Positions 23,538-62,439 of a DNA stretch of 64,000 nucleotides are shown in pieces; the first letter of the stretch is position 1; each line of letters begins with the position of its first letter. Position numbers and translations under genes: made by a program. The stretch comes from an uncultured Christensenella sp. (GTDB lineage: Bacteria > Bacillota > Clostridia > Christensenellales > UBA1242). The notes under the pieces were generated by a model. It did no database searches, was not told the DNA's origin, and saw nothing but the letters and a program-made list of their open reading frames with translations. The DNA lies in NCBI GenBank assembly GCA_964434265.1, contig CAYSUK010000001.1, forward strand, positions 175,126-239,125, in the 5' to 3' direction.

Positions 23538-23649
23538 CTAAGTATATTATACAGTAATTTTGTAATTTTGAAAAATATAATCACAACAAATGACAAAAAA
23601 TATAAAATATGTTATATTATTTTAAATATGAAAAGGTGAGTAACTGGTT

Positions 23650-24504
23650 ATGGATATAAAAAACCTAATTAAAGAAGAACATAACAATGAAAAACAATTA
23701 TTGCTTGATGAGTTTAAAAGCATAATTGATGCTATAGTTTATGATTATTTTGAAGATAAAGAAATGTTTGAAGATGACAATATCAAAACATACTATTTTG
23801 ATGAATACAAACTTAACACAAATGTTTGCCAAGATACATTTGCGACATTGTATATCGAAATTAATCAACTATCAAATATAAAAAAGTTTAACGAAAAGGC
23901 GATAGTGCAAGAACGATATTTGACCTTGAAAAAAATAAAAGACGATCTTGAGGCAATATCAATAGAGAGTTTTGACCAAAACACGCTTATATGGCAAGAT
24001 AAATATTCTATTAATTATGCAATAAATATTTATGATGAAAATCAAAACAAGACCACACATTATTTTAAAATAATACCATGTTTTACACATCTAAATGATG
24101 AAAACATAAGCGGTATAATGTATCATTCAAATGACAAAGTTCTTATCGAAATCGAATATCCAAAATTAAGTATACGAAACTTTAAAATCAAGAATAAAAA
24201 CACAAATGATTTATATCGCCAATATGTTCTATTATTCAAAAACGCATACAAATTAGAAAAAAATGAAAAAACATTACCATTTGAAATCTTTGAGATATTG
24301 TTGTATTGTGTACCAGATAATTATTTTACAGACCTAAGCATAACGACAATCTTAAAAATTTTAGACTACATCAAAAATTGTGGAATTAAAGTTTCAAAAA
24401 CCATAGACCAACAACAAGAAGCTTTTAAATCAAAATACAAATCATTGTCATCATTGTATGCATCAATGATAATTAAACGTTTATTAAAAATTTTTTCGAA
24501 ATAA
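23650..24504 (+). CDS. hypothetical protein (weak resemblance to a degenerate nucleotidyltransferase/MAB21-like fold)
   Basis: Clean 284-aa ORF with a GGTGAG RBS and its own terminator. The pattern TLYIEIN ... FKIIPCF ... LYRQYVLLFKNAY ... FEIFEILLY resembles minimal NTase-fold proteins. The canonical GS / DxD catalytic residues are not visible. Confidence 0.4.
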   Translation: MDIKNLIKEEHNNEKQLLLDEFKSIIDAIVYDYFEDKEMFEDDNIKTYYFDEYKLNTNVCQDTFATLYIEINQLSNIKKFNEKAIVQERYLTLKKIKDDLEAISIESFDQNTLIWQDKYSINYAINIYDENQNKTTHYFKIIPCFTHLNDENISGIMYHSNDKVLIEIEYPKLSIRNFKIKNKNTNDLYRQYVLLFKNAYKLEKNEKTLPFEIFEILLYCVPDNYFTDLSITTILKILDYIKNCGIKVSKTIDQQQEAFKSKYKSLSSLYASMIIKRLLKIFSK

Positions 24505-24591
24505 TAAAAGTTTTAAATTTCATGTTGTAATATTTAAAATGGAATACAAAATAATTATTACTTATAAATACAATAAATAATAACTAAGAAG

Positions 24592-24617
24592 AAAACCGCT
24601 TAACAAAGCGGTTTTTT
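24592..24617 (+). terminator. rho-independent terminator
   Basis: AAACCGCT-taacaa-AGCGGTTT followed by TTTTTT. Confidence 0.8.
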
Positions 24618-24670
24618 AAATGAAACATAATATTATGCAAAACCCGATTGCATAGTAGTTTTTTAAGCCC

Positions 24671-24711
24671 AAACTATTCGTAAAAGTTGTCTTTTGCGAA
24701 TAGTTACTAAC
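24671..24711. repeat. left boundary repeat (putative attL), hairpin-forming
   Basis: AAACTATTCGTAAAAG-ttgt-CTTTTGCGAATAGTTACTAAC. The stem is CTATTCGTAAAAG/CTTTTGCGAATAG with 1 mismatch. It shares AAACT(T)ATTCG.AAAA...CTTTTGCGAATAGTT...ACTA with 29855-29901. Confidence 0.5.
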
Positions 24712-24831
24712 TGCACTTTTAATATATCACAGGACTCCACCCTTGTCAATTAAAAAATGAAAATATTTTTTATTTTCTTGTGAATATCTATTTTTTATGG
24801 TACACTACTCTAAAAAATAAGGAAGTATCAA

Positions 24832-25380
24832 ATGAAAAGAAAAAACAAAAAAGCATTAAGTTTAACTCTAAAAATAATATTTTGTTTATTATTCTGGTGG
24901 CTAATAATTATAGTAGCAATTATAAAATTAAATAACCAGAACAACAAAAAGACCACTACTCCAACCAACAAGCAATATGAAAGCAAGAGCCTACTAACCA
25001 ATTATGAAAAGTACTTTTATGATATCATAAGTAATGAGTTTTCAAATATGTATTATATCATGCCACAAGTAAACTTAGCGTCAATAGTAAACAAAATCAA
25101 GGACTTTCCTACTCAATATCAAAATGAATTATACCGAAATATTGACATAGGTATATTTGACAAGTCAAATATGACACCACTTTTACTAATTGAGATAAAT
25201 GACAAAACACATAACAACAAAAATCGGATAGCAAGAGACCATAAAGTCAAGGAAATATGTGACACAGCAAACATTCCACTAATAACATTTTATTCCAATT
25301 ATGCAAATAAAAAAGATTACATAATACAAAGAATAAAAGAAACACTAAGCAATAATTTGCCTAATGTTTCTAACAACTGA
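24832..25380 (+). CDS. membrane-anchored DUF2726-family (restriction-endonuclease-like fold) protein
   Basis: N-terminal TM helix. The segment LLTNYEKYFYDII...IMPQVNLASIV...NIDIGIFDK...PLLLIEINDKTHNN..RIARDHKVKEICDTANIPLITF matches the DUF2726 pattern. It converges on the Rep gene and overlaps its 3' end by 36 nt. Confidence 0.65.
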   Translation: MKRKNKKALSLTLKIIFCLLFWWLIIIVAIIKLNNQNNKKTTTPTNKQYESKSLLTNYEKYFYDIISNEFSNMYYIMPQVNLASIVNKIKDFPTQYQNELYRNIDIGIFDKSNMTPLLLIEINDKTHNNKNRIARDHKVKEICDTANIPLITFYSNYANKKDYIIQRIKETLSNNLPNVSNN

Positions 25381-26214
25381 CCAATAATCATATTCAGTCA
25401 CACTAACTATACTATTCATATCGAATAGTATTTTTTTAAATTTGTCTTGTTTTCCCCTACCCAACATTTTTAAATACATGTTAGAATTATCATTTTGCAA
25501 CAGTAACGATAATAAAACCTTATCAGTATCATTCAGATTAACACAATCAAATAAATTTACATTTTTTAAAAAATTTACAATAGGAAGTTGTTTCCTAAAA
25601 TTATCATAATCAAAACAATCAAGAGTAATCTCCAAACGAGTCAAATCATAATCAAGATTACTCTCTTTGGTTTTATTGTACAACTTTACAAAACCATTTC
25701 TATTCCTATGCCCAAGATATTCAGTAATACTATCAATATCAATACTCGCCTGCTCCACCTTGTAAATCTTATCATAATCTCTTAAATCTTTCATTAAACA
25801 ACAAAGTGACCTTTTACATTTTATATCAATAGCAAAATCATATCTCACAATCTCAATCGAACGACCAAAGTTTTTAATAAAATCAATAATAGGAGTTACA
25901 TAACAATTAGACAAACACTTATTAGGATTAAATTCGATAAAACAACTTTTACAATCACTTTTTTTACAACCATTAAAAAACAAACCAACAACAAATGAAT
26001 TGTCAAAGTACTTAAAATTTAGCATATATCTATACGAGAATAAAGCATAACTTTGATACATTTTAAAGTCGTATTTTTTATCTTTAAGACTCAAATCATT
26101 AACATAATCGTTAAATTGTTTACAAACATAATCATCAAAGCGAAAGACTATACGAACCATATCACAAGACAAAATCAAGTTATCACAAGTAATAACTGGA
26201 TTATAGTAATTCAT
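25345..26214 (-). CDS. rolling-circle replication initiator, Rep_trans family (RstA/pII functional analogue)
   Basis: Motifs IVRYDFAIDI, EYLGHRNRNGFVKLYNK and LTRLEITL fit the Rep_trans signature. Start trimmed to the ATG at 26214 (MNYYNP), 8 nt after AGGTGGAG. Confidence 0.7.
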   Translation of the reverse strand: MNYYNPVITCDNLILSCDMVRIVFRFDDYVCKQFNDYVNDLSLKDKKYDFKMYQSYALFSYRYMLNFKYFDNSFVVGLFFNGCKKSDCKSCFIEFNPNKCLSNCYVTPIIDFIKNFGRSIEIVRYDFAIDIKCKRSLCCLMKDLRDYDKIYKVEQASIDIDSITEYLGHRNRNGFVKLYNKTKESNLDYDLTRLEITLDCFDYDNFRKQLPIVNFLKNVNLFDCVNLNDTDKVLLSLLLQNDNSNMYLKMLGRGKQDKFKKILFDMNSIVSVTEYDYWSVVRNIRQIIA

Positions 26215-26250
26215 ATATTCTACTCCACCTTTATGTAATTTTTTACATAG

Positions 26251-26366
26251 TAGCACACCTATTAGACATAGGTGTGCTAGTCAAAGTGGCGGGATAACCC
26301 GCCACCCACCACACACCCGCCATATAATTAACCATTGACAAGCGGATGCTTGTGTACAACACAAGC
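26251..26366. promoter_or_regulatory. cluster of three GC-rich hairpins upstream of rep (candidate replication origin / packaging signal)
   Basis: Three stems: TAGCACACCTAT-tagac-ATAGGTGTGCTA (26251-26279), GTGGCGGG-ataa-CCCGCCAC (26286-26305) and GCTTGTGT-aca-ACACAAGC (26348-26366). This is locally the most GC-rich non-coding DNA in the element. Confidence 0.4.
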
Positions 26367-26497
26367 AATAATATCAGATCAGCCACAATTAAGAAAAGAA
26401 ACCACAACTATGTGTTTTCTTTTCAAGTATTAGCATATTACAACGATATAAATGTCAAAAAATTTGCAAGTTTGCAAAAAATTTGTTACACAAATTT

Positions 26498-26653
26498 CTA
26501 GTTTTTGACATCTATATCGTTATTATCAATAGAACTTACCAAAGTGTCAGAAGACACCTTTTTTGCTTTTTTCTTAGCAATAATAGTTTTAACAAGAACA
26601 TAGATTTCATAGCCCAAATAGCCACAAAGTCCAATCAATATAAAATATTTCAT
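26498..26653 (-). CDS. small (51 aa) single-pass membrane protein, not in the ORF track
   Basis: Hand translation gives MKYFILIGLCGYLGYEIYVLVKTIIAKKKAKKVSSDTLVSSIDNNDIDVKN. The ATG lies 5 nt after the Zot-like stop, with an AAGGTAAGG RBS. The size and TM helix fit the small minor coat or assembly proteins of inoviruses. Confidence 0.45.
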   Translation of the reverse strand: MKYFILIGLCGYLGYEIYVLVKTIIAKKKAKKVSSDTLVSSIDNNDIDVKN

Positions 26654-26658
26654 TTTAA

Positions 26659-27675
26659 TTACCTTACCTTTTCTATATTTTTAAAATCGCTAGTCAGCGG
26701 TTTATATATTTTCCTATGAGAGACTCTAAGCAATGTATATCTCTTCAATTCTGAAAAAACATTCTGAATATCCGTATATGGTACACTATTATATCTTTCA
26801 CTATAACAATACGTATCATATCTTTTTCGCAATGGAAACATACCAAAAGTCACTTTCATATTGTCTTCACTATTTTGTTGTTCAATCGTTTTAATATCTT
26901 CACTTAAAGATAACTCACGAATATTAACTTTATAAAACAATCCAAAATAACCTTTAAAATTCATTAAATTAAACACTTTATTTAATCTAACACGAATAGG
27001 CTTACAAATACTGTCACTACACTGTTCAGTACATATTAGGTAGCCACCACGGCTATAATGCCGAAATAAACGGACAAACTCGTCAAGAGCATATATAACA
27101 TTAGGATTATTATACTCGTATTGATTAACATACCCCCCTATCTCATCAAGAAAAACTATCGATTTATAATTGATATGCTTTTGCAATAACAAATAATCTT
27201 CGGTCAATTCTAACGAACTTTCAATAAATCTACTTACATCACGTCGTTTAATTAAATTATTCAATAACATAGACTCATAATCGACTCTCAAAATATATCG
27301 ACTAATTTTATCCTTGTTTTTATTATTATAATCAAGCCAATAAGAATATTTCAATTTAACTAAATTATACATATTAAACTTGACTCTTTTTTGTCGAATA
27401 AAAATAGGAATAGAACTATATAACATAGGTATTTCAGTAATAATTTGTTTTTTCTCTTTTCTAAATAAATTCAAAAAACGTGATTTAATATTACCAACCC
27501 TAATTTTAAACCTATTTTTTCTAAGTAATTTTATTGATTGTTGCACACCTTTAAAGGTTTTACCACTACCCAATCCACCAGTATATGCGATAATTGTGTC
27601 GTATTTTTCAAAATATGCTTTCAAAACAAGCCATATACATAATATACCTAATAAAATAATAATTATAGACCACAT
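26659..27675 (-). CDS. Zot / pI-like morphogenesis P-loop ATPase
   Basis: N-terminal TM helix then Walker A GGLGSGKT, and Walker B IVFLDEIG. Start trimmed to the ATG at 27675 (MWSIII), preceded by AGGTGAG. Confidence 0.7.
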   Translation of the reverse strand: MWSIIIILLGILCIWLVLKAYFEKYDTIIAYTGGLGSGKTFKGVQQSIKLLRKNRFKIRVGNIKSRFLNLFRKEKKQIITEIPMLYSSIPIFIRQKRVKFNMYNLVKLKYSYWLDYNNKNKDKISRYILRVDYESMLLNNLIKRRDVSRFIESSLELTEDYLLLQKHINYKSIVFLDEIGGYVNQYEYNNPNVIYALDEFVRLFRHYSRGGYLICTEQCSDSICKPIRVRLNKVFNLMNFKGYFGLFYKVNIRELSLSEDIKTIEQQNSEDNMKVTFGMFPLRKRYDTYCYSERYNSVPYTDIQNVFSELKRYTLLRVSHRKIYKPLTSDFKNIEKVR

Positions 27676-27683
27676 ACACTCAC

Positions 27684-28037
27684 CTACCACACCAGCAAAT
27701 TGTATGTACATGAGCATACAATTTTTATAATATATAACAACATTTCAATGCAATACACTAAAAACATCACAGCAAATACAACACATTCATATATAAGTTT
27801 TAGAGTAATCCAAATAACTTTTAGTACTTCATACCATTTACTATCTTCGTCATAATCTCCGTATTCTAGAAAAGTTTTTACAATTTTTTCAGTAGACGGC
27901 ATTTCAGGACGATTTTCAGCGGACTCAGCAACATTAGATAAATAATTTTCAAAACTAAAAGAACTTGTAGCATTATTCACACTAAATAGTGCAATAATAA
28001 CAACTAAACAAATAAAAACAACACCTAATTTACGCAC
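27684..28037 (-). CDS. phage membrane protein (signal peptide plus C-terminal TM helices)
   Basis: 117 aa. The start overlaps the stop of the upstream ORF by 1 nt (translational coupling). Hydrophobic N- and C-termini. Confidence 0.5.
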   Translation of the reverse strand: MRKLGVVFICLVVIIALFSVNNATSSFSFENYLSNVAESAENRPEMPSTEKIVKTFLEYGDYDEDSKWYEVLKVIWITLKLIYECVVFAVMFLVYCIEMLLYIIKIVCSCTYNLLVW

Positions 28038-28264
28038 TATCTTTTACCACCTTTTATATCTTTATATCGCATTATCTTTTGCAAAATTTTAAATGGGAGA
28101 ATTAAAAACAACCAAACAACGATATAACTTACAACACAAACATATAGTACCTTAAAAATATCTATATATTTAAATGACCACGAGCCAATAGTGCTATCAA
28201 GTAAATTCACATCTATAAAAACACCCAATATATCATTTATTAAGATATCAAACAAATTACACAT
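28037..28264 (-). CDS. small phage membrane protein (pVI-like size/topology)
   Basis: 75 aa with a central hydrophobic helix pair and a basic C-terminus. Tightly packed in the operon. Confidence 0.45.
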   Translation of the reverse strand: MCNLFDILINDILGVFIDVNLLDSTIGSWSFKYIDIFKVLYVCVVSYIVVWLFLILPFKILQKIMRYKDIKGGKR

Positions 28265-28274
28265 AATACACCTC

Positions 28275-29279
28275 CTACATAAGTTTTCTTATAACAAAGA
28301 ATACTAGCAACAATGACACAATAGCAATTAAAAAGTAACTCATATTGATACCGAATATTTCAAAATTAAATGCATTACTTAACACATTAAAAGGGGCATC
28401 AATTATAGAAAATATCAAATTTTTAAAAGTAGATTGACCGTTTACAGTATCAGACTCCCCCATATTATAACCATCTGAATAGCCTTGATTAAATCGATCA
28501 CTACCATAATCTATATATTGAGTTTTGTTATACATACCATAATCAGACGGATTTTGTTTGACGTTATCAATACCATCATTATATCCACTTTCATATCCAC
28601 TATCGTATGCATTATCGTATGCATTTTTAGATACCAAATCATAATCAGATGGATTGTCAGTTACTAAATGTGTACCATCACTTACACCAGCATTATACCC
28701 TTCTTCATAACCATAATTACTATCAAAACCATTATTATAGAAATAGCATGCAGAACTAATACAATTAGGCGCACAATATATTCTAGAACCATCAATTTTA
28801 TGAATAAAAACCAACCCCATAACATTTAGAGAATCAAAAAATGATGATAAAGAACTATCAATATTAGGATCATAAGTATTAACAGTAGGATATGTATATT
28901 TTAAAGTTACAAAATTATAAGAGTTTGAATGACTTAACAAAGTAAAATTATCAGGTATGATATCATTATAATAATCATACACATAATAATCATAATCAGT
29001 ATCATAATTTTTAAATGTAAAAGCGTAAAATTTAAAAGTATATGTACATGTTGAAGAAGAAACATCATGAGTCCAAGAAGACAGAGACAAATCTTCACTT
29101 AAATTCATATCATAACTCTTACCATATGGAGAGAAACAATATGTATTACTTATATTTAATGCACCTACAACTGCAACAATACTAAGCATAAGACACATAA
29201 TATAACTAAAAAGGTGGTATTTAGACACCACCTTTTTCTTATATATAGTGTCACAATTATTATTAAACATAATAGACAC
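28275..29279 (-). CDS. pIII-like minor coat/adsorption protein candidate
   Basis: 334 aa with an N-terminal signal anchor and a C-terminal TM anchor (YFLIAIVSLLLVFFVIRKLM). The middle region has Y/D/N/G-rich repeats (GYNxG...NPSDY). It directly follows the major coat candidate. Confidence 0.5.
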   Translation of the reverse strand: MSIMFNNNCDTIYKKKVVSKYHLFSYIMCLMLSIVAVVGALNISNTYCFSPYGKSYDMNLSEDLSLSSWTHDVSSSTCTYTFKFYAFTFKNYDTDYDYYVYDYYNDIIPDNFTLLSHSNSYNFVTLKYTYPTVNTYDPNIDSSLSSFFDSLNVMGLVFIHKIDGSRIYCAPNCISSACYFYNNGFDSNYGYEEGYNAGVSDGTHLVTDNPSDYDLVSKNAYDNAYDSGYESGYNDGIDNVKQNPSDYGMYNKTQYIDYGSDRFNQGYSDGYNMGESDTVNGQSTFKNLIFSIIDAPFNVLSNAFNFEIFGINMSYFLIAIVSLLLVFFVIRKLM

Positions 29280-29287
29280 CCCCTACA

Positions 29288-29506
29288 CTATCTATTGCGA
29301 ACCATACGAATTGCACCATATACCAAGCCAATAGCCATACTAATACCTAGAAATACTAGACCAAATTCAGCAACACTAGAAAGTACTTTTGTACTGGCTT
29401 CCGGGTCTTCATAAAGAATATTTAGAAAAGCCGTTTTTATACCACTAGCAAGATTTGTAATAGTAGTTGTAAAACCAGTGAATATTTTAGAAACTATATC
29501 TGCCAT
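29288..29506 (-). CDS. pVIII-like major coat protein candidate
   Basis: 72 aa. The C-terminal 40 aa show the classical inovirus coat layout: acidic EDPEAS, a hydrophobic helix AEFGLVFLGISMAIGLVYGAI, and a basic tail RMVRNR. Confidence 0.55.
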   Translation of the reverse strand: MADIVSKIFTGFTTTITNLASGIKTAFLNILYEDPEASTKVLSSVAEFGLVFLGISMAIGLVYGAIRMVRNR

Positions 29507-29697
29507 TAGTCAATAACACCCCCTTTTTCATCGTATTTGTGGAATTTTAACAAATACTTAAATAGTTTTTTGTTATCTTCCTTAACTTGTAGAGATATTT
29601 TTTCGCCGTCGATTATTGTGGACAACTCATAATACTCTACACATTCGCCGTCTTTTTCAAACGACTTTTTAACAATACACAAATCAAATTTTTTCAT
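29506..29697 (-). CDS. small phage protein (possible ssDNA-binding or regulatory protein)
   Basis: 63 aa, the first ORF of the structural operon, with a GGAGG RBS. Its stop overlaps the coat gene start by 1 nt. No recognisable motif. Confidence 0.4.
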   Translation of the reverse strand: MKKFDLCIVKKSFEKDGECVEYYELSTIIDGEKISLQVKEDNKKLFKYLLKFHKYDEKGGVID

Positions 29698-29791
29698 TTT
29701 TTAATACCTCCATATAAATTTTATTGTGTACAGATAATAACTACTTCGCAAAAGACACTATTTTGCAAACAATTTTTAATGATACACTATT

Positions 29792-29826
29792 AAAAAAAAG
29801 TACTAACCTTTTTTAACAGTTAGTAC
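29792..29826 (-). terminator. minus-strand terminator insulating the phage operon from upstream host transcription
   Basis: On the minus strand: GTACTAAC-tgttaaaaaag-GTTAGTAC followed by T8. Confidence 0.5.
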
Positions 29827-29854
29827 CAATCATATAATTATAAAGTAGATAACA

Positions 29855-29901
29855 AAACTTATTCGCAAAACTATGGTCACTTTTGCGAATAGTTTGTTAC
29901 T
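29855..29901. repeat. right boundary repeat (putative attR), hairpin-forming
   Basis: AAACTTATTCGCAAAA-ctatggtcac-TTTTGCGAATAGTTTGTTACTA with a perfect 11-bp stem TATTCGCAAAA/TTTTGCGAATA. Imperfect direct copy of 24671-24711. Confidence 0.5.
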
Positions 29902-29990
29902 ATGCTTATATCCGGCAAGTATTGCTAAAATTATCATAAGCACAAAAAACAACTACTTTCTACTCCACTAAAAAGTTGTTGTAGTTGTTT

Positions 29991-30668
29991 TTATCTGCAA
30001 AGTTCTAAAAGAAAACCTTTATTTTTTAAATCAGCCATATTTGATTTGTATTTTGGCATAACAGATTCTATCACTTTATAGAAAGTTTTCGAATGATTAA
30101 ACTCAATCAGGTGTGCCAACTCATGTATTATGATGTAGTCTATCACATTAGGTTTGAGCATAACAATTCTAAAATTAAATTTCAAATCTCCCCTTTTTGA
30201 GCAACTTCCCCACCTTGTTTTATTGTTCATTATCGATATCGAACGATAATTTAGCGACATTAATTTTGCAAAATATGGCACTCTATTAAGAAGAATTTCT
30301 TTACATAATCTTATGTATTCATTTGACACTTTTTTTACCAGTTCGGCATGGGTTAGATTTTGAGATATGTAAACCTTTTTGTTTTTTACATCCCACTCCA
30401 CATTCTTAATTTTTGCCACATCAACTCGTGTATACTCTTTTCCTAAGTATAATAATGTATCGTAATTTAGTACAGATTTGTTTTGGTTATTTCTAATTTG
30501 CATCTGCTCTTGTTTTAATTTTATCCATGGCTCTTTTTCAATTAGAAATTTATTAATTGTTTCCATTGGCAAATGTTTTGGCGCACGTACCACTATCTCC
30601 CCTGATTTGCTTACAGAAATACACAGTGTCTTTCTATAACTTCTTATTATATAATCAGGTTTTATCAT
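29991..30668 (-). CDS. YgjP-like (DUF45 / M48-related) zinc metallohydrolase
   Basis: HELAHLIEFNHS HExxH motif in a DUF45-typical context (...FYKVIESVMP). Start trimmed to the ATG at 30668 (MIKPDY) after AAGGAG. Confidence 0.8.
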   Translation of the reverse strand: MIKPDYIIRSYRKTLCISVSKSGEIVVRAPKHLPMETINKFLIEKEPWIKLKQEQMQIRNNQNKSVLNYDTLLYLGKEYTRVDVAKIKNVEWDVKNKKVYISQNLTHAELVKKVSNEYIRLCKEILLNRVPYFAKLMSLNYRSISIMNNKTRWGSCSKRGDLKFNFRIVMLKPNVIDYIIIHELAHLIEFNHSKTFYKVIESVMPKYKSNMADLKNKGFLLELCR

Positions 30669-30696
30669 ATAATTCTCCTTACGACTTATTAAAAAG

Positions 30697-30801
30697 TTTG
30701 CATAGTACCTATACATTAATATATCACAAAAGGGCTTTATCTCCTACTTTTTTAAAGTAATACTTTGCATAGTATATATAAAATTTTGAGTTTGCATAGT
30801 A
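30697..30801. repeat. three direct copies of TTTGCATAGTA in the divergent intergenic region (candidate operator sites)
   Basis: Exact 11-mers at 30697-30707, 30764-30774 and 30791-30801. A fourth 10-mer, TTGCATAGTA, lies at 24648-24657. Confidence 0.4.
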
Positions 30802-37565: not shown

Positions 37566-40328
37566 CTATTTTTCAGATAACTTTTTTATTTTGCTAGTAT
37601 AGTCACTCCAACCCGACACAGTCGTATTTACATATGTGTCATAATACTCATCAGGAACGTAGATAATAAGGTCATCGCTGTAACCAAAAAGGTTGTAACC
37701 CAATGTAGGCGGATTTGCCGAAGTAAATGTGATACTTGTAAGAGATGTATTACCACCGAATGCGCCCACGATACTTGTTACACTACTTGGGATAGTTACA
37801 CTTTTAATAGTTTTATTCTCATAAAATGCCCTTAGAATTCCATAACATTCAGGTATAGTAACATTTTCAGAAGTGCCTATATAATCTACCAGATATTTAT
37901 TTCCATCATTTCCAATTACAAATTTAAAATCACCTTCTGTCGTAATTTGACTAGTCCCACTTGTAGCCACTCTTACAGCATAATATGCTACACTACCATT
38001 ACTAGGACTACCAACCGTAATAGTTAGTGTAGATAAATTTATTACTTCTGCAAGGCGATAACATGAAGAGAATGCATTATAATCAATACTTGTTACACTT
38101 GCTGGAATAGTAATACTTGTGAGAGCTGAACAATTATAGAATGTATTATAATTAATACTTGTCACATTCTCAGGGATTGTGATACTTGTAAGTGATGTAC
38201 AATAATAGAATGCATAACTACTAATACTTGTCACATTCTCAGGGATTGTAATGCTTGTAAGTGATGTACAGCCTCGGAATGCATAATTATTAATACTTGT
38301 AAGTTGACTATTTTCAGCGAATGTCACACCTGTAAGCGCTGAACAACCATCGAATGCTTGCGAACCAATACCGGTTACACCACTTGGGATTGTGATATTT
38401 GTGAGTGATGTACAATTCATAAATGTACAAGGGGCGATATAACTAAGTTGACTATTCTCTGCAAATGTCACACTTGTAAGGGCTGTACAATCACTGAATG
38501 CCTGTAGATGGATACCTGTCACACTCGACGGGATTGTGATACTTGTGAGTGATGTACAGTTGTTGAATGCATTTTCACCAATACCTGTAACTTGCATTCC
38601 ATTGTGGCTTTCAGGTATAACTACTCTTGATATATTTTTACCTAGGACACCCAAAACTGTGACGCGGTCAGATAGAGTAAAATCATCTTGAAGAGTATAT
38701 ATAAAGCATAGCCTAGAAGAGTCGCTAGAAGTAATATTTGAAACTACGCAAGTAGACGATGTAGATAAACTTTGACCAGCAGTAACGTCGCTTGGGTCAT
38801 ATATCTCTACTACACAAAAATCAGTCAAATCAATGATAGGGATATTTAAAGTAACACTACCATTTTCAAAATTTCCAGCATCTAAATTAGAAATTGAACC
38901 ATATAAGCTATATAATATATCTAAAGCACTTACATATTTGAAATAATTTGGCAATACTAATACGCTTTTTGCTTTTGGGTTGTTTAAAGTAATGCTAACT
39001 ACTTCTAAATTTGATACTCGATAGTTTGTGTACGAATATGTAAGAGATTCAGTATCATATGAGTCAGTCATGATAGTTTGAGTGTTTGAAATATCACTAC
39101 CCAAACTATGCTTATCTGCTATCCAGTTTTGAGTAGTTTTTGTGGTGGTCATAGTCGAGTTGTTGTTTGAATACTTGACGGTTATACCAGAGATACCCAT
39201 AGCTTTAAGTTGACCCCCTAAAACATTGCTAGCTAATGCTAAAGTAAGTGACATCTCGCCATTGTCTAGATATGAGTTTGGAATAGTGACTGACACTACT
39301 CCATCGTCAGATGTCGTATAACAATCTTCTATCACTACAAGATTGGAATCTGCAAGTGCATCTTCATATGAAGCATACGAGCCTTTTACGACTATAAACT
39401 CACCCATCTCAATAACAGGCACTAGTGTTTGATCATCAGTACTGTACATCGACATCAAACTACTATCCACCATTACATATGGGAAATAGTCAAAAGTGAT
39501 ATCAAAGCCACTAGGTACATTTGATATATTGAGTGTGGAAATAATATAACCATATTCATATTCATCAGAACTAATTTTCATTGTCTCTACTACTTCAGTG
39601 CCAGTAGACTCGATAGTGGTAGTCTCGATAGTAGGCTCACCCAAAGTCAAGACTGACACACTTGGGCCTGATATACCTGAAAAGTCTTCAAAGTATGGTA
39701 TAAAGTCTACTATAGTAGTAGGTACTTCTCCGCTCTCGCTATGGATTAGGCTTTGGAGCACGATACCTGTCATAGTGATTGTACACTTTTGACCACTGGC
39801 CGAATTACCGAGTGAGTTTGGGAATGTGATAGGGACTGTGAATTTGATAGTAATACCGCTTGTGGTAGGTGTAAATACTTTTAGATTTGCTGTGTTTGAT
39901 TTTTCTGCTAGGTACAAGTCACCATTGTATACTACCATGACTGTATCTGTAGACTTTGTGCCATTGATAGTGACGTCATATGTACTACCTGCGGTGAGTG
40001 TAAGTTTTGCGCCCGTAGAGCCTGCTTTGAGTGATGGGATTACTTTTAGTACTCCGCTTGTAGGGTCGCCATCTGTTCCGTTTTTCACTACAAGTGTAGT
40101 CTCTACATCGACTGTTTGGCTAGGCACGACTGTGAGTCCGTCGCTAGTCGCGACTGACACACCATTCTCGCCATCAAACTCGATTGATGCACCGAGTTTG
40201 ATTTCTGTACTGCCACTCTTACTATCGCCAAAGAATGTGAGTGTTATGCCGACGGTCAGACCGACACAAGCGACTAGTATGAGTGCCATGCAAACTAGCA
40301 TTTTGTGAAATTTAAATTGACTCTTCAT
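37566..40328 (-). CDS. surface protein: SipW-type signal peptide + TasA/camelysin-like N-domain + central region + BspA-type leucine-rich repeats
   Basis: The N-terminus MKSQFKFHKMLVCMALILVACVGLTVGITLTFFGDSKSGSTEIKLGASIEF matches the TasA/CalY class of signal peptides (..GGTFAYFSD..). The C-terminal half holds about 9-10 LRRs of ~23 aa (FxxCTSLTSITIPxSVTSI). Confidence 0.8.
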   Translation of the reverse strand: MKSQFKFHKMLVCMALILVACVGLTVGITLTFFGDSKSGSTEIKLGASIEFDGENGVSVATSDGLTVVPSQTVDVETTLVVKNGTDGDPTSGVLKVIPSLKAGSTGAKLTLTAGSTYDVTINGTKSTDTVMVVYNGDLYLAEKSNTANLKVFTPTTSGITIKFTVPITFPNSLGNSASGQKCTITMTGIVLQSLIHSESGEVPTTIVDFIPYFEDFSGISGPSVSVLTLGEPTIETTTIESTGTEVVETMKISSDEYEYGYIISTLNISNVPSGFDITFDYFPYVMVDSSLMSMYSTDDQTLVPVIEMGEFIVVKGSYASYEDALADSNLVVIEDCYTTSDDGVVSVTIPNSYLDNGEMSLTLALASNVLGGQLKAMGISGITVKYSNNNSTMTTTKTTQNWIADKHSLGSDISNTQTIMTDSYDTESLTYSYTNYRVSNLEVVSITLNNPKAKSVLVLPNYFKYVSALDILYSLYGSISNLDAGNFENGSVTLNIPIIDLTDFCVVEIYDPSDVTAGQSLSTSSTCVVSNITSSDSSRLCFIYTLQDDFTLSDRVTVLGVLGKNISRVVIPESHNGMQVTGIGENAFNNCTSLTSITIPSSVTGIHLQAFSDCTALTSVTFAENSQLSYIAPCTFMNCTSLTNITIPSGVTGIGSQAFDGCSALTGVTFAENSQLTSINNYAFRGCTSLTSITIPENVTSISSYAFYYCTSLTSITIPENVTSINYNTFYNCSALTSITIPASVTSIDYNAFSSCYRLAEVINLSTLTITVGSPSNGSVAYYAVRVATSGTSQITTEGDFKFVIGNDGNKYLVDYIGTSENVTIPECYGILRAFYENKTIKSVTIPSSVTSIVGAFGGNTSLTSITFTSANPPTLGYNLFGYSDDLIIYVPDEYYDTYVNTTVSGWSDYTSKIKKLSEK
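38157..38277. repeat. near-identical 69-bp-period tandem repeat inside the LRR coding region
   Basis: ACTTGTCACATTCTCAGGGATTGT(G/A)AT(A/G)CTTGTAAGTGATGTACA occurs at 38157 and again at 38226. The copies encode TIPENVTSI..YCTSLTS. More diverged copies span ~37990-38600. Confidence 0.8.
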
Positions 40329-40540
40329 TAGTTTTCTCCATTTTTATTCTACCCATATATGGGTGGATTTATATATATTTATAAAGGTATATATGTAGAT
40401 ATATCCACATACTTTCCCCTACAAATCTATTTTACCCCCCCCCCCTATGGGGTGTGTCAAGCGATTTTGCATAAGTTGTGGGAAAAAGTGGTAGTTTTGA
40501 GTAGTTTTGGAGTGAAAACGGGAATGAGTTATGCACAAAA
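39686..40540. repeat. copy A of the duplicated promoter/leader/signal-peptide/TasA-like-domain cassette
   Basis: Aligns with 60873-61717. Similarity is detectable from ~39686 and is near-identical from ~39790 to 40540, covering the first ~180-213 codons plus ~210 nt upstream. Confidence 0.85.
40429..40460 (-). promoter_or_regulatory. promoter with poly-G tract in the spacer (copy A, G11)
   Basis: The minus strand reads TTGACA-caccccata-GGGGGGGGGGG-TAAAAT. The -35 is at 40455-40460, the -10 at 40429-40434, the spacer is 20 nt, and the C11 run on the + strand is at 40435-40445. Confidence 0.55.
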
Positions 40541-59220: not shown

Positions 59221-59767
59221 TTAGACCAAAACTCCTTAAATATATACTTCTTATAATCGACCATATAAGGTCATAAAGATTTATTACAAATACCCCTTCA
59301 CACTTTGTCGACAATTCACTTTTTAGATAATCGACTTCTACATTGTTGTAAATACTGATATATTCGTTTTTTGCAAGTATAAGCGACGTAGCCACTCCTA
59401 GAAAAGTGTTCACAAATCCATATAGCATCGAAACATCAAATGGACTTTCACTAGACATACATACTCTTGTTTCAATTTGAAGTGGATTTATTCGCTTGAT
59501 AAATGATTTTGAAATATCTTCTACTATCTTAATCGTCTTTGTATTGATATCCAGTAGTCTTATTTGAATTACCTTTTTATTATTATGGACAAAATTGATA
59601 TAGTCACCTACGAGACTAAACTCGCCAGTATAAATTTTTAGTCCAAATAACGAAAACGATACTTTCCCTATGTTTGATTCAAAGTCATAACTCACTTTTA
59701 CACCGACCCTAATATCAATCACAAGTATCACAATAACAATAAAAAATATAAGTATAGCCAAAACCAT
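59192..59767 (-). CDS. YtfI-like protein (DUF2953-type) by position
   Basis: N-terminal TM, 191 aa, immediately upstream of and overlapping ytfJ, as ytfI is in Bacillus. Confidence 0.5.
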   Translation of the reverse strand: MVLAILIFFIVIVILVIDIRVGVKVSYDFESNIGKVSFSLFGLKIYTGEFSLVGDYINFVHNNKKVIQIRLLDINTKTIKIVEDISKSFIKRINPLQIETRVCMSSESPFDVSMLYGFVNTFLGVATSLILAKNEYISIYNNVEVDYLKSELSTKCEGVFVINLYDLIWSIIRSIYLRSFGLNGKKESSKQ

Positions 59768-59872
59768 ACTATATTTTGCTCAAATTACAAATTTTTATTT
59801 ATAAAAACAAAAAAGACCCTACCATAAGATAAGGTCTTTAATTTATAGATTGATATATAATGTTGGTTTCAC

Positions 59873-61516
59873 CTACAGACTGAGTTGCAAAGCGGGAACA
59901 GCGCCGCTGATCGGATCGTTGACACCGTTGTAGTCGCCGACACAGCCCCCACCGACGCCGGACGCACAGTAGCCGCAGTTGTAACTAGGAGACCGAAGCC
60001 ACACGTCACCACTATCTATCAACATAATATACACATCGTAGTTTTCATCGCCTGGTGAAGGTTCGGTTCCGTCAAATAATAGTTGGATTAAATACTCCTT
60101 GGTATATGTGACTGCTTTTGTCGCTTTTGCATAGTCAGAAGTGCTCCATATACGGGCGGAATCAGACACAGTACGGTCAGAATTAAAGCCGTATGATGTA
60201 TTGATAAGGTCGGCATAACTTAGTGCAAATACATAGTCGTTTGTATCTTCACAAGTGTATGGGTTTTCACCACTAGAACTTGTATATGTGGTAGATACAC
60301 TGTTGTCTACTGTTGTAAGTTGGATAAGGGCCTTTTGGTCTGATGAAAATGATTTCTCATAGAAATCACCAGTAAGGAAACTACGTAATTCACTCCATTT
60401 ATAGTTATTTGCATACACTTGTGTTCCGTTGTCAGTCAATATATTACCCGACGAATCGGTAGCATAATAGTTACTACCGCTTTGAGTGTATTGTGATTGA
60501 TATGCCATTCCTTGGAGTATGGTGTCTGATGTTATCAGTGCTGTGCCGTCAGAATTACTTAGTATTCGCCATTTGATTGGCTCGACTTTAAAGTAGTAGT
60601 CATTGCCTACGGCTAGTGATGTAGTACCATCACTCATTAGGTTTAGTTTACATGTAGACCATGTATTCCAATCCATTCCGATAGCATCTTCGTCATATGT
60701 GTATGTGATTTTAGCATAACGTTCGCCGTCACTACCTAGATAGTATCCGTCAGAATCAGGTGTCGATGATGTGATTGTGACATCAGCCGATTTGATGGTT
60801 TGTGGGAATGAGCCAAATGTAATATATTTGCCGTCTTCGGATAGTTCATATAGACTCTCTGTAGGGGCAAGTTCTTCAAAATATGGCTGAAAGTCTACAA
60901 TTGTTGTGTCTACTTCTCCATTTTCGCCATAGATTAGGCTTTGAACTACTACTCCTTTCATGGATATAGTACATTTTTGACCACTGGCTGAATTACCGAG
61001 TGAGTTTGGGAATGTGATAGGTACTGTGAATTTTATAGTAGTTCCGCTTGTGGTAGGGGTAAATACTTTTAGGTTTGCTTTGTTTGAATTTTCTGCTAGA
61101 TACAAGTCACCATTGTACACTACCATGACTGTATCTGTGGACTTTGTTCCATTGATAGTGACGTCATATGTACTGCCTGCGGTGAGTGTGAGTTTTGCAC
61201 CCGTACTACCTGCTGTAAGTGATGGGATTACTTTTAGCACTCCGCTTGTAGGGTCGCCATCTGTTCCGTTTTTCACTACGAGTGTAGTCTCTACATCGAC
61301 TGTTTGGCTAGGCACTACAGTAAGTCCGTCGCTAGTCGCTACTGACACACCATTCTCGCCATCAAACTCGATTGATGCACCGAGTTTGATTTCCGTACTG
61401 CCACTCTTACTATCGCCAAAGAATGCGACAGTAAGTCCGATAGTTGCACCGACGCATAGGACTAGTATGAGTGCCATGCAGACTAGCATTTTGTGAAACT
61501 TAAATTGACTCTTCAT
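59873..61516 (-). CDS. surface protein paralog: SipW-type signal peptide + TasA/camelysin-like N-domain + DUF6273-like C-terminal domain
   Basis: The first ~213 aa are almost identical to 37566-40328. The C-terminal part carries ITFGSFPQT..., VEPIKWRIL, WSELRSFL, VWLRSPS and ...VPALQLSL, a pattern I recall for the family labelled DUF6273. This needs HMM confirmation. Confidence 0.8.
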   Translation of the reverse strand: MKSQFKFHKMLVCMALILVLCVGATIGLTVAFFGDSKSGSTEIKLGASIEFDGENGVSVATSDGLTVVPSQTVDVETTLVVKNGTDGDPTSGVLKVIPSLTAGSTGAKLTLTAGSTYDVTINGTKSTDTVMVVYNGDLYLAENSNKANLKVFTPTTSGTTIKFTVPITFPNSLGNSASGQKCTISMKGVVVQSLIYGENGEVDTTIVDFQPYFEELAPTESLYELSEDGKYITFGSFPQTIKSADVTITSSTPDSDGYYLGSDGERYAKITYTYDEDAIGMDWNTWSTCKLNLMSDGTTSLAVGNDYYFKVEPIKWRILSNSDGTALITSDTILQGMAYQSQYTQSGSNYYATDSSGNILTDNGTQVYANNYKWSELRSFLTGDFYEKSFSSDQKALIQLTTVDNSVSTTYTSSSGENPYTCEDTNDYVFALSYADLINTSYGFNSDRTVSDSARIWSTSDYAKATKAVTYTKEYLIQLLFDGTEPSPGDENYDVYIMLIDSGDVWLRSPSYNCGYCASGVGGGCVGDYNGVNDPISGAVPALQLSL

Positions 61517-61717
61517 TTATTTTCTCCATTTTTATTCTACCCATATATGAGTGTGATTTATATATATTTATAAAGGTATATATGTGGATATATCCACATA
61601 CTTTCCCCTACAAACATATTTTACCCCCCCCCCTATGGGGTGTGTCAAATGAATTTGGCTAAGTTATAGAAAAAAGTGGTGGTTTTGGAGTGAAAACGGG
61701 AATGAGTTATGCACAAA
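60873..61717. repeat. copy B of the duplicated promoter/leader/signal-peptide/TasA-like-domain cassette
   Basis: Aligns with 39686-40540 in the same (minus) orientation, 21 kb away. Near-identical from ~60977 to 61717. Confidence 0.85.
61618..61648 (-). promoter_or_regulatory. promoter with poly-G tract in the spacer (copy B, G10)
   Basis: Minus strand: TTGACA (61643-61648)-caccccata-G10 (61624-61633)-TAAAAT (61618-61623). The spacer is 19 nt. Confidence 0.55.
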
Positions 61718-61742
61718 ATAAAAAGACGAGCTAGTCGTCTTT
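61715..61742 (-). terminator. terminator of scpB
   Basis: AAAGACGA-gctag-TCGTCTTT, followed on the minus strand by TTTTATTTT. Confidence 0.55.
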
Positions 61743-62439
61743 AAATTATTTCGTCTTCGCTATCGTTTATGTCGTCCATAACCGATTGGAGTTCGTCCAT
61801 TTTTATATCGAGATTTTCTCGCATTTTCTCTACGTCTATTTCTTGTTCGGCTTGAAGTTTTTCTTGTTCTTCAAAGTCAGTAAAATTAAAGAGTGATGAG
61901 TCTTGTGGTTCGTGTAAAACTTTTATACGTTCCAATAGTTCTTCATAGTCAGGCAAGTCATTAAGTGATGACAAGTCAAATTTCTTTAAGAAGTTGTCGG
62001 TTGTGCCAAAAAGCAAAGGTTTTCCGACTGCATCTTTTCGACCAACCACTTCGATAAGGTTGTTTTCGATAAGCATATTTATGGCATAGTCGCTATTTAC
62101 ACCCCTGACATTGTCGACTTCAAGTCTTGTAACTGGTTGTTTGTAAGCGATGATTGCACACACTTCGAGTACGGCTTTTGTAAGGGCTTTTTCCTTTATT
62201 GGATTTAGCACTTCGGATATTTTTTCGCTATATTCGGGATTACTTGAAAGTTGGGCTTTTTCATTAAATATAAGTACTTGAATACCACTACCCGATTGCT
62301 TTTTATCTTCTTGCAATTCTTTTACGGCAGACAAAACTTCGTCTTGGCTAAGTTGTAGTTTTTCAGCGATGTCATATAGTGCCACACTCTCGCCCGCTAC
62401 AAATAGTATCCCCTCAATTATCTGTTTTAAGTTCTCCAT
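61741..62439 (-). CDS. scpB: segregation and condensation protein B
   Basis: ScpB winged-helix repeats (IIEGILFVAGESV..., IAYKQPVTRLEVDNVRGVNSD). Start probably the ATG at 62439 (MENLKQ). Acidic C-terminal tail. Confidence 0.9.
   Translation of the reverse strand: MENLKQIIEGILFVAGESVALYDIAEKLQLSQDEVLSAVKELQEDKKQSGSGIQVLIFNEKAQLSSNPEYSEKISEVLNPIKEKALTKAVLEVCAIIAYKQPVTRLEVDNVRGVNSDYAINMLIENNLIEVVGRKDAVGKPLLFGTTDNFLKKFDLSSLNDLPDYEELLERIKVLHEPQDSSLFNFTDFEEQEKLQAEQEIDVEKMRENLDIKMDELQSVMDDINDSEDEII

What the first reader, a model, noticed from the sequence alone, without database searches (positions are those of the whole stretch)
61618..61648. Poly-G spacer promoter, copy B (G10)
This copy has the same TTGACA ... 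TAAAAT architecture as 40429-40460, but with a 10-nt tract and a 19-nt spacer. It is listed separately because each locus could switch independently, giving combinatorial display of the LRR and DUF6273-type heads.
Basis: partly seen in the sequence, partly recalled or inferred. Interest (0 to 1): 0.65.

Follow-up and report, generated by a model that had tools for sequence, protein, structure and literature searches.

The report
Poly-G spacer promoter of adhesin paralog
A run of ten G's sits exactly between the two recognition boxes of a conserved promoter for a secreted surface-protein gene in an uncultured gut Clostridia bacterium, which makes it a credible but unproven slippage-driven on/off switch of a kind well known in pathogens.

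Summary
On the minus strand, 61648..61618 reads TTGACA-[CACCCCATA+G10, 19 nt]-TAAAAT. It lies about 100 nt upstream of a 547-aa gene (59873..61516). A paralogous copy at 40460..40429 has G11 (20 nt).

These are the only G/C runs longer than 6 in 64 kb, and this is the only sigma-70-like box pair upstream of either gene. Both boxes are invariant in a diverged orthologue (L100), whose spacer is 18 nt (G5AG7) while the rest of the intergenic DNA has drifted. So a real sigma-A promoter whose spacing is set by a G tract is well supported.

In contigs of related gut metagenomes the tract ranges from 4 to at least 11 G's, and the assemblies break at it.

Switching itself is not shown. No same-strain reads or RNA data could be obtained. 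Both window copies have off-optimal spacers (19 and 20 nt), so they are predicted low or OFF. MutS and MutL are intact. A 19/20-bp spacer is also the hallmark of MerR-type promoters, which makes that a weak rival.

The proteins carry a TasA/camelysin-like N-terminal module fused to different heads (DUF6273 or BspA-type LRR).

Verdict: a probable new member of a known kind (porA/vlp-type promoter-spacer phase variation). Interest is moderate.

The parts
61643..61648 (-). -35 box TTGACA (6/6 consensus)
   Evidence: Read directly. Identical in copy A and in orthologue L100.
61624..61642 (-). 19-nt spacer CACCCCATA + G10; the G10 tract is 61624-61633
   Evidence: The G count is the only difference from copy A anywhere between the -35 and -10 boxes.
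61618..61623 (-). -10 box TAAAAT (5/6 consensus)
   Evidence: Invariant in copy A and in L100.
61649..61721 (-). Conserved A+T-rich upstream region, UP-element-like. It holds one copy of a 10-nt unit (CAAAACyACy) that is duplicated in copy A.
   Evidence: (repeat D3). Relatives carry an 11-nt insertion after 61682. The roughly 35 nt next to the -35 box are partly conserved in L100.
61722..61742 (-). Intrinsic terminator of the upstream gene scpB. It insulates the promoter from read-through.
61569..61612 (-). Predicted 5'-terminal stem-loop of the roughly 95-nt leader. It contains the perfect palindrome ATGTGGATATATCCACAT (61582-61599). The start site near 61611 is inferred, not mapped.
   Evidence: The same fold forms in both copies (z = -2.5 and -2.2), with a G-U replacement in copy A. 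No Rfam family matches.
61524..61527 (-). Shine-Dalgarno GGAG, 7 nt before the ATG at 61516
   Evidence: Read directly. AAAAATGGAGA is conserved in copy A and in L100.
59873..61516 (-). Gene B, 547 aa: signal peptide plus a TasA/camelysin-like N-terminal module (aa 1-215) plus a DUF6273 head
59812..59839 (-). Intrinsic terminator of gene B, which makes it a monocistronic unit
   Evidence: 12-pair stem followed by a T-run.
40429..40460 (-). Sister promoter, copy A: TTGACA-[CACCCCATA+G11, 20 nt]-TAAAAT
37566..40328 (-). Gene A, 920 aa: the same N-terminal module (91% aa identity) plus a BspA-type LRR head

Best explanation
61618-61648 is the core of a housekeeping-sigma (sigma-A) promoter that drives the monocistronic gene 59873..61516. 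That gene encodes a secreted protein with a TasA/camelysin-like N-terminal module and a DUF6273 head. The -35 and -10 boxes are near-perfect, so promoter strength is set mainly by their spacing, and a G tract fixes that spacing.

Slipped-strand mispairing during replication is expected to add or remove G's. That would move the spacer between the productive range (G7-G9, 16-18 nt) and unproductive lengths. As assembled, G10 gives 19 nt, so the promoter is predicted weak or OFF. The sister locus (G11, 20 nt) would switch independently.

Shown here: the architecture, the rarity of the tract, conservation of the boxes, and variation of the tract among paralogues and relatives. Inferred: the transcription start, the dependence of activity on tract length, and a rate of change fast enough to count as phase variation.
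For: (1) The architecture and coordinates are exact.

(2) These are the only G/C runs longer than 6 in 64 kb, and both sit at the same promoter position.

(3) This is the only sigma-70-like box pair upstream of both genes. The promoter is bracketed by the upstream gene's terminator and the gene's own terminator.

(4) The stretch from the -35 box to the ATG differs between the paralogues at 4.6% of sites, against 49 of 215 (23%) third codon positions in the adjoining coding sequence. Between the -35 and -10 boxes the sole difference is one G.

(5) Orthologue L100 has 63% aa identity in the N-terminal module. It keeps TTGACACACCC...GGGGGGGTAAAAT with an 18-nt spacer (G5AG7), while the surrounding intergenic DNA has diverged. 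This is a phylogenetic footprint of the two boxes together with a length-variable G-rich spacer, and one of those lengths is productive.

(6) Contigs from related gut metagenomes show G4, G5, G6, G7 and at least G11 at homologous cassettes. In one paralogue the tract region differs between samples of one study (ATA+G5 versus A+G6). Contigs end in the tract, and 31-40-nt unitigs pile up there.

(7) The products are surface or secreted proteins with swappable heads, the usual cargo of contingency loci.

(8) Precedent exists in the porA poly-G spacer and the hif TA spacer (PMC3899988) and in the vlp family, which has a poly-A tract in every promoter (PMC10502178).
Against: No length heterogeneity within one strain or population could be examined. 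The same strain occurs only in Logan contigs of SRR10277277/SRR10277276, which stop short of the promoter. No run with more than 16% shared words is served. No RNA run is available.

None of the assembled states in the window or the close relatives has a 16-18-nt spacer; they are 13, 14, 15, 15, 19 and 20 nt. Only L100 does, at 18 nt.

Reaching G8 from G10 or G11 needs two or three slippage steps. MutS and MutL are intact, which lowers slippage rates.

The sequencing platform of the window is unknown, so the difference between G10 and G11 could partly be homopolymer error.

The differences seen in relatives are largely between paralogues, so they show evolutionary variability rather than rapid switching.
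Confidence: 0.5

Rival explanations
1. The promoter is real but the tract is not a working switch. On this reading the G-rich spacer is an inherited, slowly drifting feature of the cassette. Length differences among paralogues and species reflect ordinary indel evolution. Expression is weak or constitutive, or is controlled elsewhere, for example at the palindrome/5' stem-loop of the leader or the repeat upstream of the -35 box.
For: All the variation seen is between paralogues, strains or species, none of it within a clone. Short tracts (G4-G6, and G5AG7 in L100) are poorly mutable, yet those cassettes persist. Mismatch-repair genes are intact. The leader has a conserved palindrome/stem-loop that could be an operator or a stabiliser.
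Against: Uninterrupted G10 and G11 are extreme outliers in a 34% G+C window, and such tracts are intrinsically unstable. Assemblies of relatives break exactly at the tract. With 19- and 20-nt spacers an unassisted promoter should be nearly silent (PMC7722741), which is hard to reconcile with strong conservation of both boxes.
Confidence: 0.25
2. It is a MerR-type promoter. The 19- and 20-bp spacers would be deliberate, and a MerR-family activator would bind the dyad CCCC-ATA-GGGG in the spacer and untwist the DNA to align the boxes.
For: All 28 experimentally confirmed MerR-regulated promoters surveyed have 19- or 20-bp spacers (PMC7722741), and the two window copies have exactly 19 and 20. 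The boxes are strong, as in MerR targets. The centre of the CCCC-ATA-GGGG dyad falls at about -24 in copy B, by my own count, which is the position of the central kink in the BmrR complex.
Against: The dyad is weak: 4-bp perfect arms, about 6 of 10 when extended, and one arm is simply the homopolymer. No regulator gene lies beside either locus; the neighbours are scpB and rny. None of the 20 other window ORFs scanned has a MerR domain, although the scan was not exhaustive. The orthologue L100 has an 18-nt spacer with a different centre (CCCGGG). Relatives have 13-15-nt spacers.
Confidence: 0.1
3. It is not a functional element. The box-like hexamers and the tract would be a chance arrangement copied by the gene duplication, or an assembly artefact.
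For: Copies A and B descend from one duplication, so they count as a single event. Homopolymers are error-prone in some sequencing chemistries.
Against: An independent lineage (L100, a short-read Logan contig) keeps both boxes and a G-rich spacer while the flanks have diverged. Related short-read metagenomes carry the same element. The non-coding cassette is far more conserved than synonymous sites. No alternative promoter is found.
Confidence: 0.05

Closest known systems
Neisseria meningitidis porA promoter (poly-G tract between the -35 and -10 boxes)
   Same: A homopolymeric G tract lies inside the spacer of a sigma-70-type promoter of a surface-protein gene. Gain or loss of one G changes the transcript level (PMC3899988).
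   Different: The host here is a Gram-positive, spore-forming gut Clostridia relative rather than a proteobacterial pathogen. The cargo is a TasA-like/DUF6273 protein rather than a porin. Dependence of expression on tract length is not demonstrated. The assembled lengths give 19 and 20 nt, further from the optimum than the usual porA states (the porA comparison is from my own knowledge).
Mycoplasma hyorhinis vlp gene family (poly-A tract in the promoter of every vlp gene)
   Same: It is a family of paralogous surface-protein genes. Each is separately transcribed and each has its own homopolymeric promoter tract, which allows independent ON/OFF switching and combinatorial display (PMC10502178).
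   Different: The tract is poly-A rather than poly-G. The vlp products are lipoproteins with repetitive C-termini, whereas here a shared TasA-like N-terminal module is fused to unrelated heads. Only two copies are visible in this window.
Haemophilus influenzae hifA/hifB TA-repeat spacer and Mycoplasma mycoides vmm dinucleotide spacer
   Same: The length of a repeat in the -35/-10 spacer sets promoter activity.
   Different: Those are dinucleotide repeats, and the hif promoter is bidirectional. Here the repeat is a mononucleotide tract in a unidirectional promoter.
MerR-family-regulated promoters (Pbmr, PmerT, PcopA and others)
   Same: Strong -35 and -10 boxes are separated by a 19- or 20-bp spacer that contains a dyad (PMC7722741).
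   Different: The dyad here is short and half of it is a homopolymer. There is no adjacent MerR gene. The spacer length is not conserved in the orthologue (18 nt) or in relatives (13-15 nt).
Bacillus subtilis TasA / camelysin (Pfam Peptidase_M73) fibre proteins
   Same: The N-terminal 215-aa module has the ...TLAYFG-type signal-peptide junction. Five of 40 family members match PF12389 (best E 3e-9). The best PDB fold match of the AF2 model is the TasA fibre 8aur (E 5e-5), followed by archaeal bundling pili.
   Different: The window proteins themselves do not reach any Pfam or NCBIfam model. TM-scores are low (0.38). The module is fused to large LRR or DUF6273 heads, which TasA lacks. No sipW-like peptidase gene was seen nearby.

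Membership tests
SSR-mediated phase-variable promoter (porA/opc/vlp type) | A homopolymeric tract of about 8 nt or more lies between recognisable -35 and -10 boxes | tested here: met
   G10 lies between TTGACA and TAAAAT, and G11 in copy A.
SSR-mediated phase-variable promoter (porA/opc/vlp type) | The boxes are a genuine promoter for the downstream gene | tested here: inconclusive
   Support is indirect. It is the only candidate pair. Both boxes are invariant in the diverged orthologue L100. The non-coding cassette differs at 4.6% of sites against 23% at third codon positions. No transcription-start or RNA data exist.
SSR-mediated phase-variable promoter (porA/opc/vlp type) | Tract length is heterogeneous within a clonal population and changes reversibly at high frequency | not testable with these tools
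Same-strain Logan contigs stop before the promoter. Only variation between paralogues and strains (G4 to at least G11) and graph breaks at the tract were seen in relatives.
SSR-mediated phase-variable promoter (porA/opc/vlp type) | Expression level tracks tract length, with an ON length giving a 17±1-nt spacer | not testable with these tools
   No RNA runs are available. The assembled spacers are 19 and 20 nt, and only L100 has 18 nt.
SSR-mediated phase-variable promoter (porA/opc/vlp type) | The cargo is a surface-exposed or contingency function | tested here: met
   Signal peptide plus TasA-like module plus a DUF6273 or BspA-LRR head.
MerR-type promoter | A 19- or 20-bp -35/-10 spacer | tested here: inconclusive
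   Met in the window (19 and 20 bp). Not conserved elsewhere: 18 nt in L100 and 13-15 nt in relatives.
MerR-type promoter | A long palindromic operator fills the spacer | tested here: not met
   Only CCCC-ATA-GGGG, with 4-bp arms. The extended arms match at about 6 of 10 positions (read).
MerR-type promoter | A cognate MerR-family regulator gene, usually adjacent or divergent | tested here: not met
   The neighbours are scpB and rny. None of the 20 other window ORFs scanned has a MerR domain. The rest of the genome was not available.
TasA/camelysin (Pfam PF12389 Peptidase_M73) for the shared N-terminal module | A sequence match to the family model | tested here: not met
   The window module has no hit at E up to 10. 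It is linked only transitively: 5 of 40 homologues match PF12389, and P0094 carries PF12389.
TasA/camelysin (Pfam PF12389 Peptidase_M73) for the shared N-terminal module | A TasA-like beta-sandwich fold | tested here: inconclusive
   The AF2 model has pLDDT 86.7. The top Foldseek PDB hit is the TasA fibre 8aur (E 5e-5, probability 1.0), but the TM-score is only 0.38.
TasA/camelysin (Pfam PF12389 Peptidase_M73) for the shared N-terminal module | A dedicated SipW-type signal peptidase and its cognate signal-peptide motif | not tested
   The motif ...TVAFFGDSKSG resembles the TasA/CalY junction, but only from my memory. NCBIfam gave no signal-peptide model hit. No sipW gene was sought systematically.

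The most novel reading that the evidence does not exclude
An uncultured Christensenellales-like gut Clostridia lineage carries a family of TasA-like fibre or adhesin genes with interchangeable heads (BspA-LRR, DUF6273). Each gene sits behind its own poly-G spacer promoter. Independent slippage at each tract, together with recombination between the shared 5' cassettes (as the mosaic P0001 suggests), would give combinatorial, heritable variation of the cell surface. This would be a vlp-like system in a spore-forming gut commensal, where phase variation has so far been attributed mainly to invertible promoters.
Probability: 0.35. Interest if true: 0.6.

Novelty: new member of a known kind. Interest (0 to 1): 0.45.

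Why it matters
If the tract really switches, it would show that simple-repeat promoter phase variation operates in uncultured spore-forming gut Firmicutes. That mechanism is textbook in Neisseria, Haemophilus and mycoplasmas. In this case it would control TasA-like proteins with adhesin or lectin-type heads that probably mediate contact with the host, with glycans or with phage.

It would add a mechanism to the inverton-centred picture of surface variation in the gut microbiome.

It would also matter for metagenomics. Such loci break assemblies, and their consensus state (here OFF-like) can misrepresent what the population expresses.

If the tract does not switch, the finding is an ordinary, oddly spaced promoter.

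Tried and rejected
- **Rfam:** nothing at gathering threshold over the whole window, or at E up to 10 on 61450-61780, beyond spurious AT-hairpin miRNA hits. So there is no known riboswitch or leader.
- **Same-strain evidence:** exact-protein look-ups for gene B, gene A, ScpB and RNase Y, including alternative starts, found nothing. FTHFS and ScpA did find Logan contigs of SRR10277277/SRR10277276, but these end before the promoter.
- **Sequencing-run index:** only relatives at roughly 90-94% identity are available, and there are no RNA runs.
- **GTDB representatives:** no relative of the N-terminal module was found with peptide seeds. The nearest genome, L001 (FTHFS 87%), lacks gene B at the syntenic site and has no G8 run. 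L002 also has none.
- **JGI metagenomes:** the G7 pattern gave 0 hits. The G4 pattern gave 13 hits. The one inspected (L084, 62% G+C) is unrelated, and the others look like soil or peat contigs and were not inspected.
- **Viral contigs:** 0 hits.
- **Word-indexed protein search with the module alone:** 0 hits. The exhaustive HMMER search was needed to find homologues.
- **Single-sequence AF2:** useless, pLDDT 38.
- **Invertible-promoter idea:** no flanking inverted repeats beyond AT-rich noise.
- **DGR idea for the DUF6273 head:** no template-repeat-like copy of the gene's 3' end in the window.
- **Distant stand-alone homologue (L097):** it has an ordinary promoter without poly-G, so the tract is clade-specific.
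- **Sporulation-sigma and G-quadruplex readings:** considered by eye and dropped because the spacing or the G-run pattern does not fit.

Full report
**Observation**

On the minus strand, 61648..61618 reads TTGACA, then CACCCCATA plus ten G's (19 nt), then TAAAAT. The sister site at 40460..40429 is identical apart from an eleventh G, which gives a 20-nt spacer.

Runs of eight G's occur only inside these two tracts (7 matches against 0.1 expected). The next longest G/C run in the whole 64-kb window is C6. The longest A/T runs are A8 and T9, even though the DNA is 66% A+T.

The stock promoter scan misses the site only because its spacer range stops at 18 nt. When spacers of 14-21 nt are allowed, this pair scores 11 of 12. 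It is the only pair shared by both copies that scores at least 9 of 12 in the roughly 260 nt upstream of each gene.

**Context**

The window comes from an uncultured, spore-forming Clostridia lineage. It carries a sigF operon, spoVA-like genes, YtfJ and YunB. The closest genome in GTDB representatives is a Clostridia MAG with 87% FTHFS identity, followed by a Christensenella-labelled MAG at 78%.

Each promoter lies directly after the intrinsic terminator of a housekeeping gene: scpB for copy B and rny for copy A. Each lies about 100 nt upstream of a gene on the minus strand. Gene B has its own strong terminator, so it is a monocistronic unit.

The two loci share a cassette of about 210 nt of upstream DNA plus the first 215 codons, at 88% nucleotide identity. 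After that they diverge completely. The head of gene B is DUF6273 (Pfam E 3e-12). The head of gene A is a BspA-type LRR (3e-58).

In the nearest related genome (L001), scpB is followed directly by the ytfI/ytfJ-like genes. Gene B with its promoter is therefore an insertion specific to this lineage.

**Is it a promoter?**

Three lines of evidence say yes.

- It is the only candidate pair upstream of either gene.
- The stretch from the -35 box to the ATG differs between the paralogues at 6 of 131 aligned sites (4.6%). In the adjoining coding region, 49 of 215 third codon positions differ (23%). Between the -35 and -10 boxes the only difference is one G. This points to purifying selection or homogenisation of the regulatory region.
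- A 533-aa DUF6273 orthologue (P0003) has 55% overall identity and 63% identity in the N-terminal module. It sits on Logan contig L100 and has TTGACA-CACCCGGGGGAGGGGGGG-TAAAAT upstream. Both boxes and the flanking CACCC / GGGGGGG are invariant, the spacer is 18 nt, and the rest of the intergenic region has drifted.

The Shine-Dalgarno sequence and the first ATG are conserved too. This suggests that the database start at Met10 (P0002) is a miscall.

The start site near 61611 is inferred. The leader would begin with a stem-loop that contains the perfect palindrome ATGTGGATATATCCACAT. That stem-loop is predicted in both copies. No Rfam family matches.

**Is the tract variable?**

Direct evidence could not be obtained. 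There are no RNA runs.

Indirect evidence comes from gut metagenomes that hold a relative at roughly 90-94% identity (runs X1-X4). At homologous cassettes, laid contigs and their loose ends show the following:

- G6 + TAAAAT (15-nt spacer);
- ATA+G5 + TATAAT (14 nt) in two samples, but A+G6 + TATAAT (13 nt) in two other samples of the same study, with the same downstream sequence;
- G6 + TATAAT in another paralogue;
- G4 joined to a different downstream sequence;
- G7 joined to a different upstream sequence;
- a 2.7-kb contig, at three to five times the flanking depth, that begins inside a tract of at least 11 G's.

Contigs repeatedly end in the tract, and 31-40-nt unitigs accumulate there.

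Together with L100, the series of spacer lengths is 13, 14, 15, 15, 18, 19 and 20 nt. The tract is therefore the evolutionarily labile part of an otherwise conserved core. However, most of these differences are between paralogues or strains, not within a clone.

**What state is this locus in?**

Sigma-A/sigma-70 holoenzymes use spacers of 17±1 bp, and a 19-bp spacer makes an otherwise good promoter inactive without help (PMC7722741).

With G10 the promoter is therefore predicted weak or OFF. G7-G9 would be the ON range. Copy A (G11) is one step further away. The orthologue's 18-nt spacer shows that the family does occupy the productive range.

Neither window copy nor any close relative is assembled in that range, and MutS and MutL are intact. 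These are the main reasons for keeping confidence in active switching at about 0.5. Confidence that this is a genuine promoter whose spacing is governed by a G tract is much higher, roughly 0.8.

**The cargo**

An exhaustive HMMER search of the N-terminal 215 aa found 46 relatives.

- Some are long proteins with LRR_5 or DUF6273 heads.
- Many are stand-alone proteins of 200-250 aa with the junction motif ...TLAYFG....
- Five of 40 aligned family members match Pfam Peptidase_M73, the camelysin/TasA family, with a best E-value of 3e-9.

An AF2 model built on this alignment has pLDDT 86.7. Its best PDB match is the TasA fibre 8aur (E 5e-5), followed among fibre proteins by archaeal bundling pili, although TM-scores are low. 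The module is therefore probably TasA/camelysin-like, but it does not meet the family model itself.

P0001 is an 827-aa LRR protein whose module is a mosaic of the A-type and B-type sequences. This hints at recombination between cassettes. In L100 an LRR gene lies directly upstream of the DUF6273 gene.

**Rivals**

(a) The tract is a slowly drifting relic rather than a working switch, and control lies elsewhere (0.25).

(b) It is a MerR-type promoter (0.10). All 28 confirmed MerR promoters surveyed have 19- or 20-bp spacers, which is exactly what the window shows, and the CCCC-ATA-GGGG dyad is centred near -24. Against this, the dyad is weak. No MerR gene is adjacent or among the 20 other ORFs scanned. 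The orthologue has an 18-nt spacer and relatives have 13-15 nt.

(c) It is chance or an artefact (0.05). The independent short-read occurrences and the footprint argue against this.

**Comparison and novelty**

By mechanism, the closest known systems are the porA poly-G spacer and the hif TA spacer (PMC3899988). For the multi-paralogue aspect, the closest is the Mycoplasma hyorhinis vlp family, in which every gene has its own homopolymeric promoter tract (PMC10502178).

The structural criteria for membership are met. The two defining behavioural criteria, within-clone heterogeneity and length-dependent expression, could not be tested.

I rate it a probable new member of a known kind, in an unusual host and with unusual cargo. 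Literature searches found no report of such a switch in gut Clostridia, which is only weak evidence of absence. Interest is 0.45.

Noticed in passing
window 22479-30716: A low-G+C island (25-28%) with strongly negative GC skew lies next to lexA. It holds a tyrosine integrase (Phage_integrase, E 4e-35), a DUF2726 protein and a string of small unannotatable ORFs. It looks like a small integrated mobile element or prophage.
   Followed up: partly
window 61489-61516 and 40301-40328: Public gene calls start these proteins at Met10 (P0002 equals gene A from residue 10; P0001 starts likewise). The upstream ATG, with its GGAG Shine-Dalgarno and a Lys-rich n-region, is conserved in both copies and in L100, so the longer form is probably the true one.
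   Followed up: partly
protein P0001 (not in the window) versus window 39684-40328 and 60872-61516: P0001 is an 827-aa LRR protein whose signal-peptide region is B-type and whose remaining N-terminal module is A-type. This suggests recombination or gene conversion between cassette paralogues. Its DNA could not be fetched.
   Followed up: partly
window 40491-40509 versus 61676-61684: A 10-nt unit (GTAGTTTTG on the + strand, CAAAACTAC on the gene strand) upstream of the -35 box is duplicated in copy A and single in copy B. Relatives carry an 11-nt insertion at the same spot (after 61682). This is a second length polymorphism, of about one helical turn.
   Followed up: no
window 61582-61599 (and 40393-40410): The perfect 18-nt palindrome ATGTGGATATATCCACAT lies inside the predicted 5'-terminal stem-loop of the leader. 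Copy A has a C-to-T change that keeps a G-U pair in RNA but breaks the DNA palindrome. It could be an mRNA stabiliser or an operator.
   Followed up: partly
window 59873-60300 (3' end of gene B): The DUF6273 head is described in the literature as a target domain of diversity-generating retroelements (titles retrieved). No template-repeat-like copy of this region exists in the window. The rest of the genome is unknown.
   Followed up: partly
L001 5067-6418 versus window 59767-61741: In the nearest GTDB genome, scpB is followed directly by the ytfI/ytfJ-like genes. Gene B plus its promoter is therefore an insertion between conserved housekeeping genes.
   Followed up: yes
L100 2-1447 and 1730-3331: In the related species a BspA-type LRR gene lies immediately upstream of the DUF6273 paralogue, so the two head types are in tandem there. 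In this window they are 21 kb apart.
   Followed up: partly
L084-L096 (JGI contigs): The 19-mer TTGACACACCCCATAGGGG occurs in 13 JGI contigs. The one inspected is a 62% G+C contig with no other similarity. The hits are probably chance or an unrelated conserved site.
   Followed up: partly
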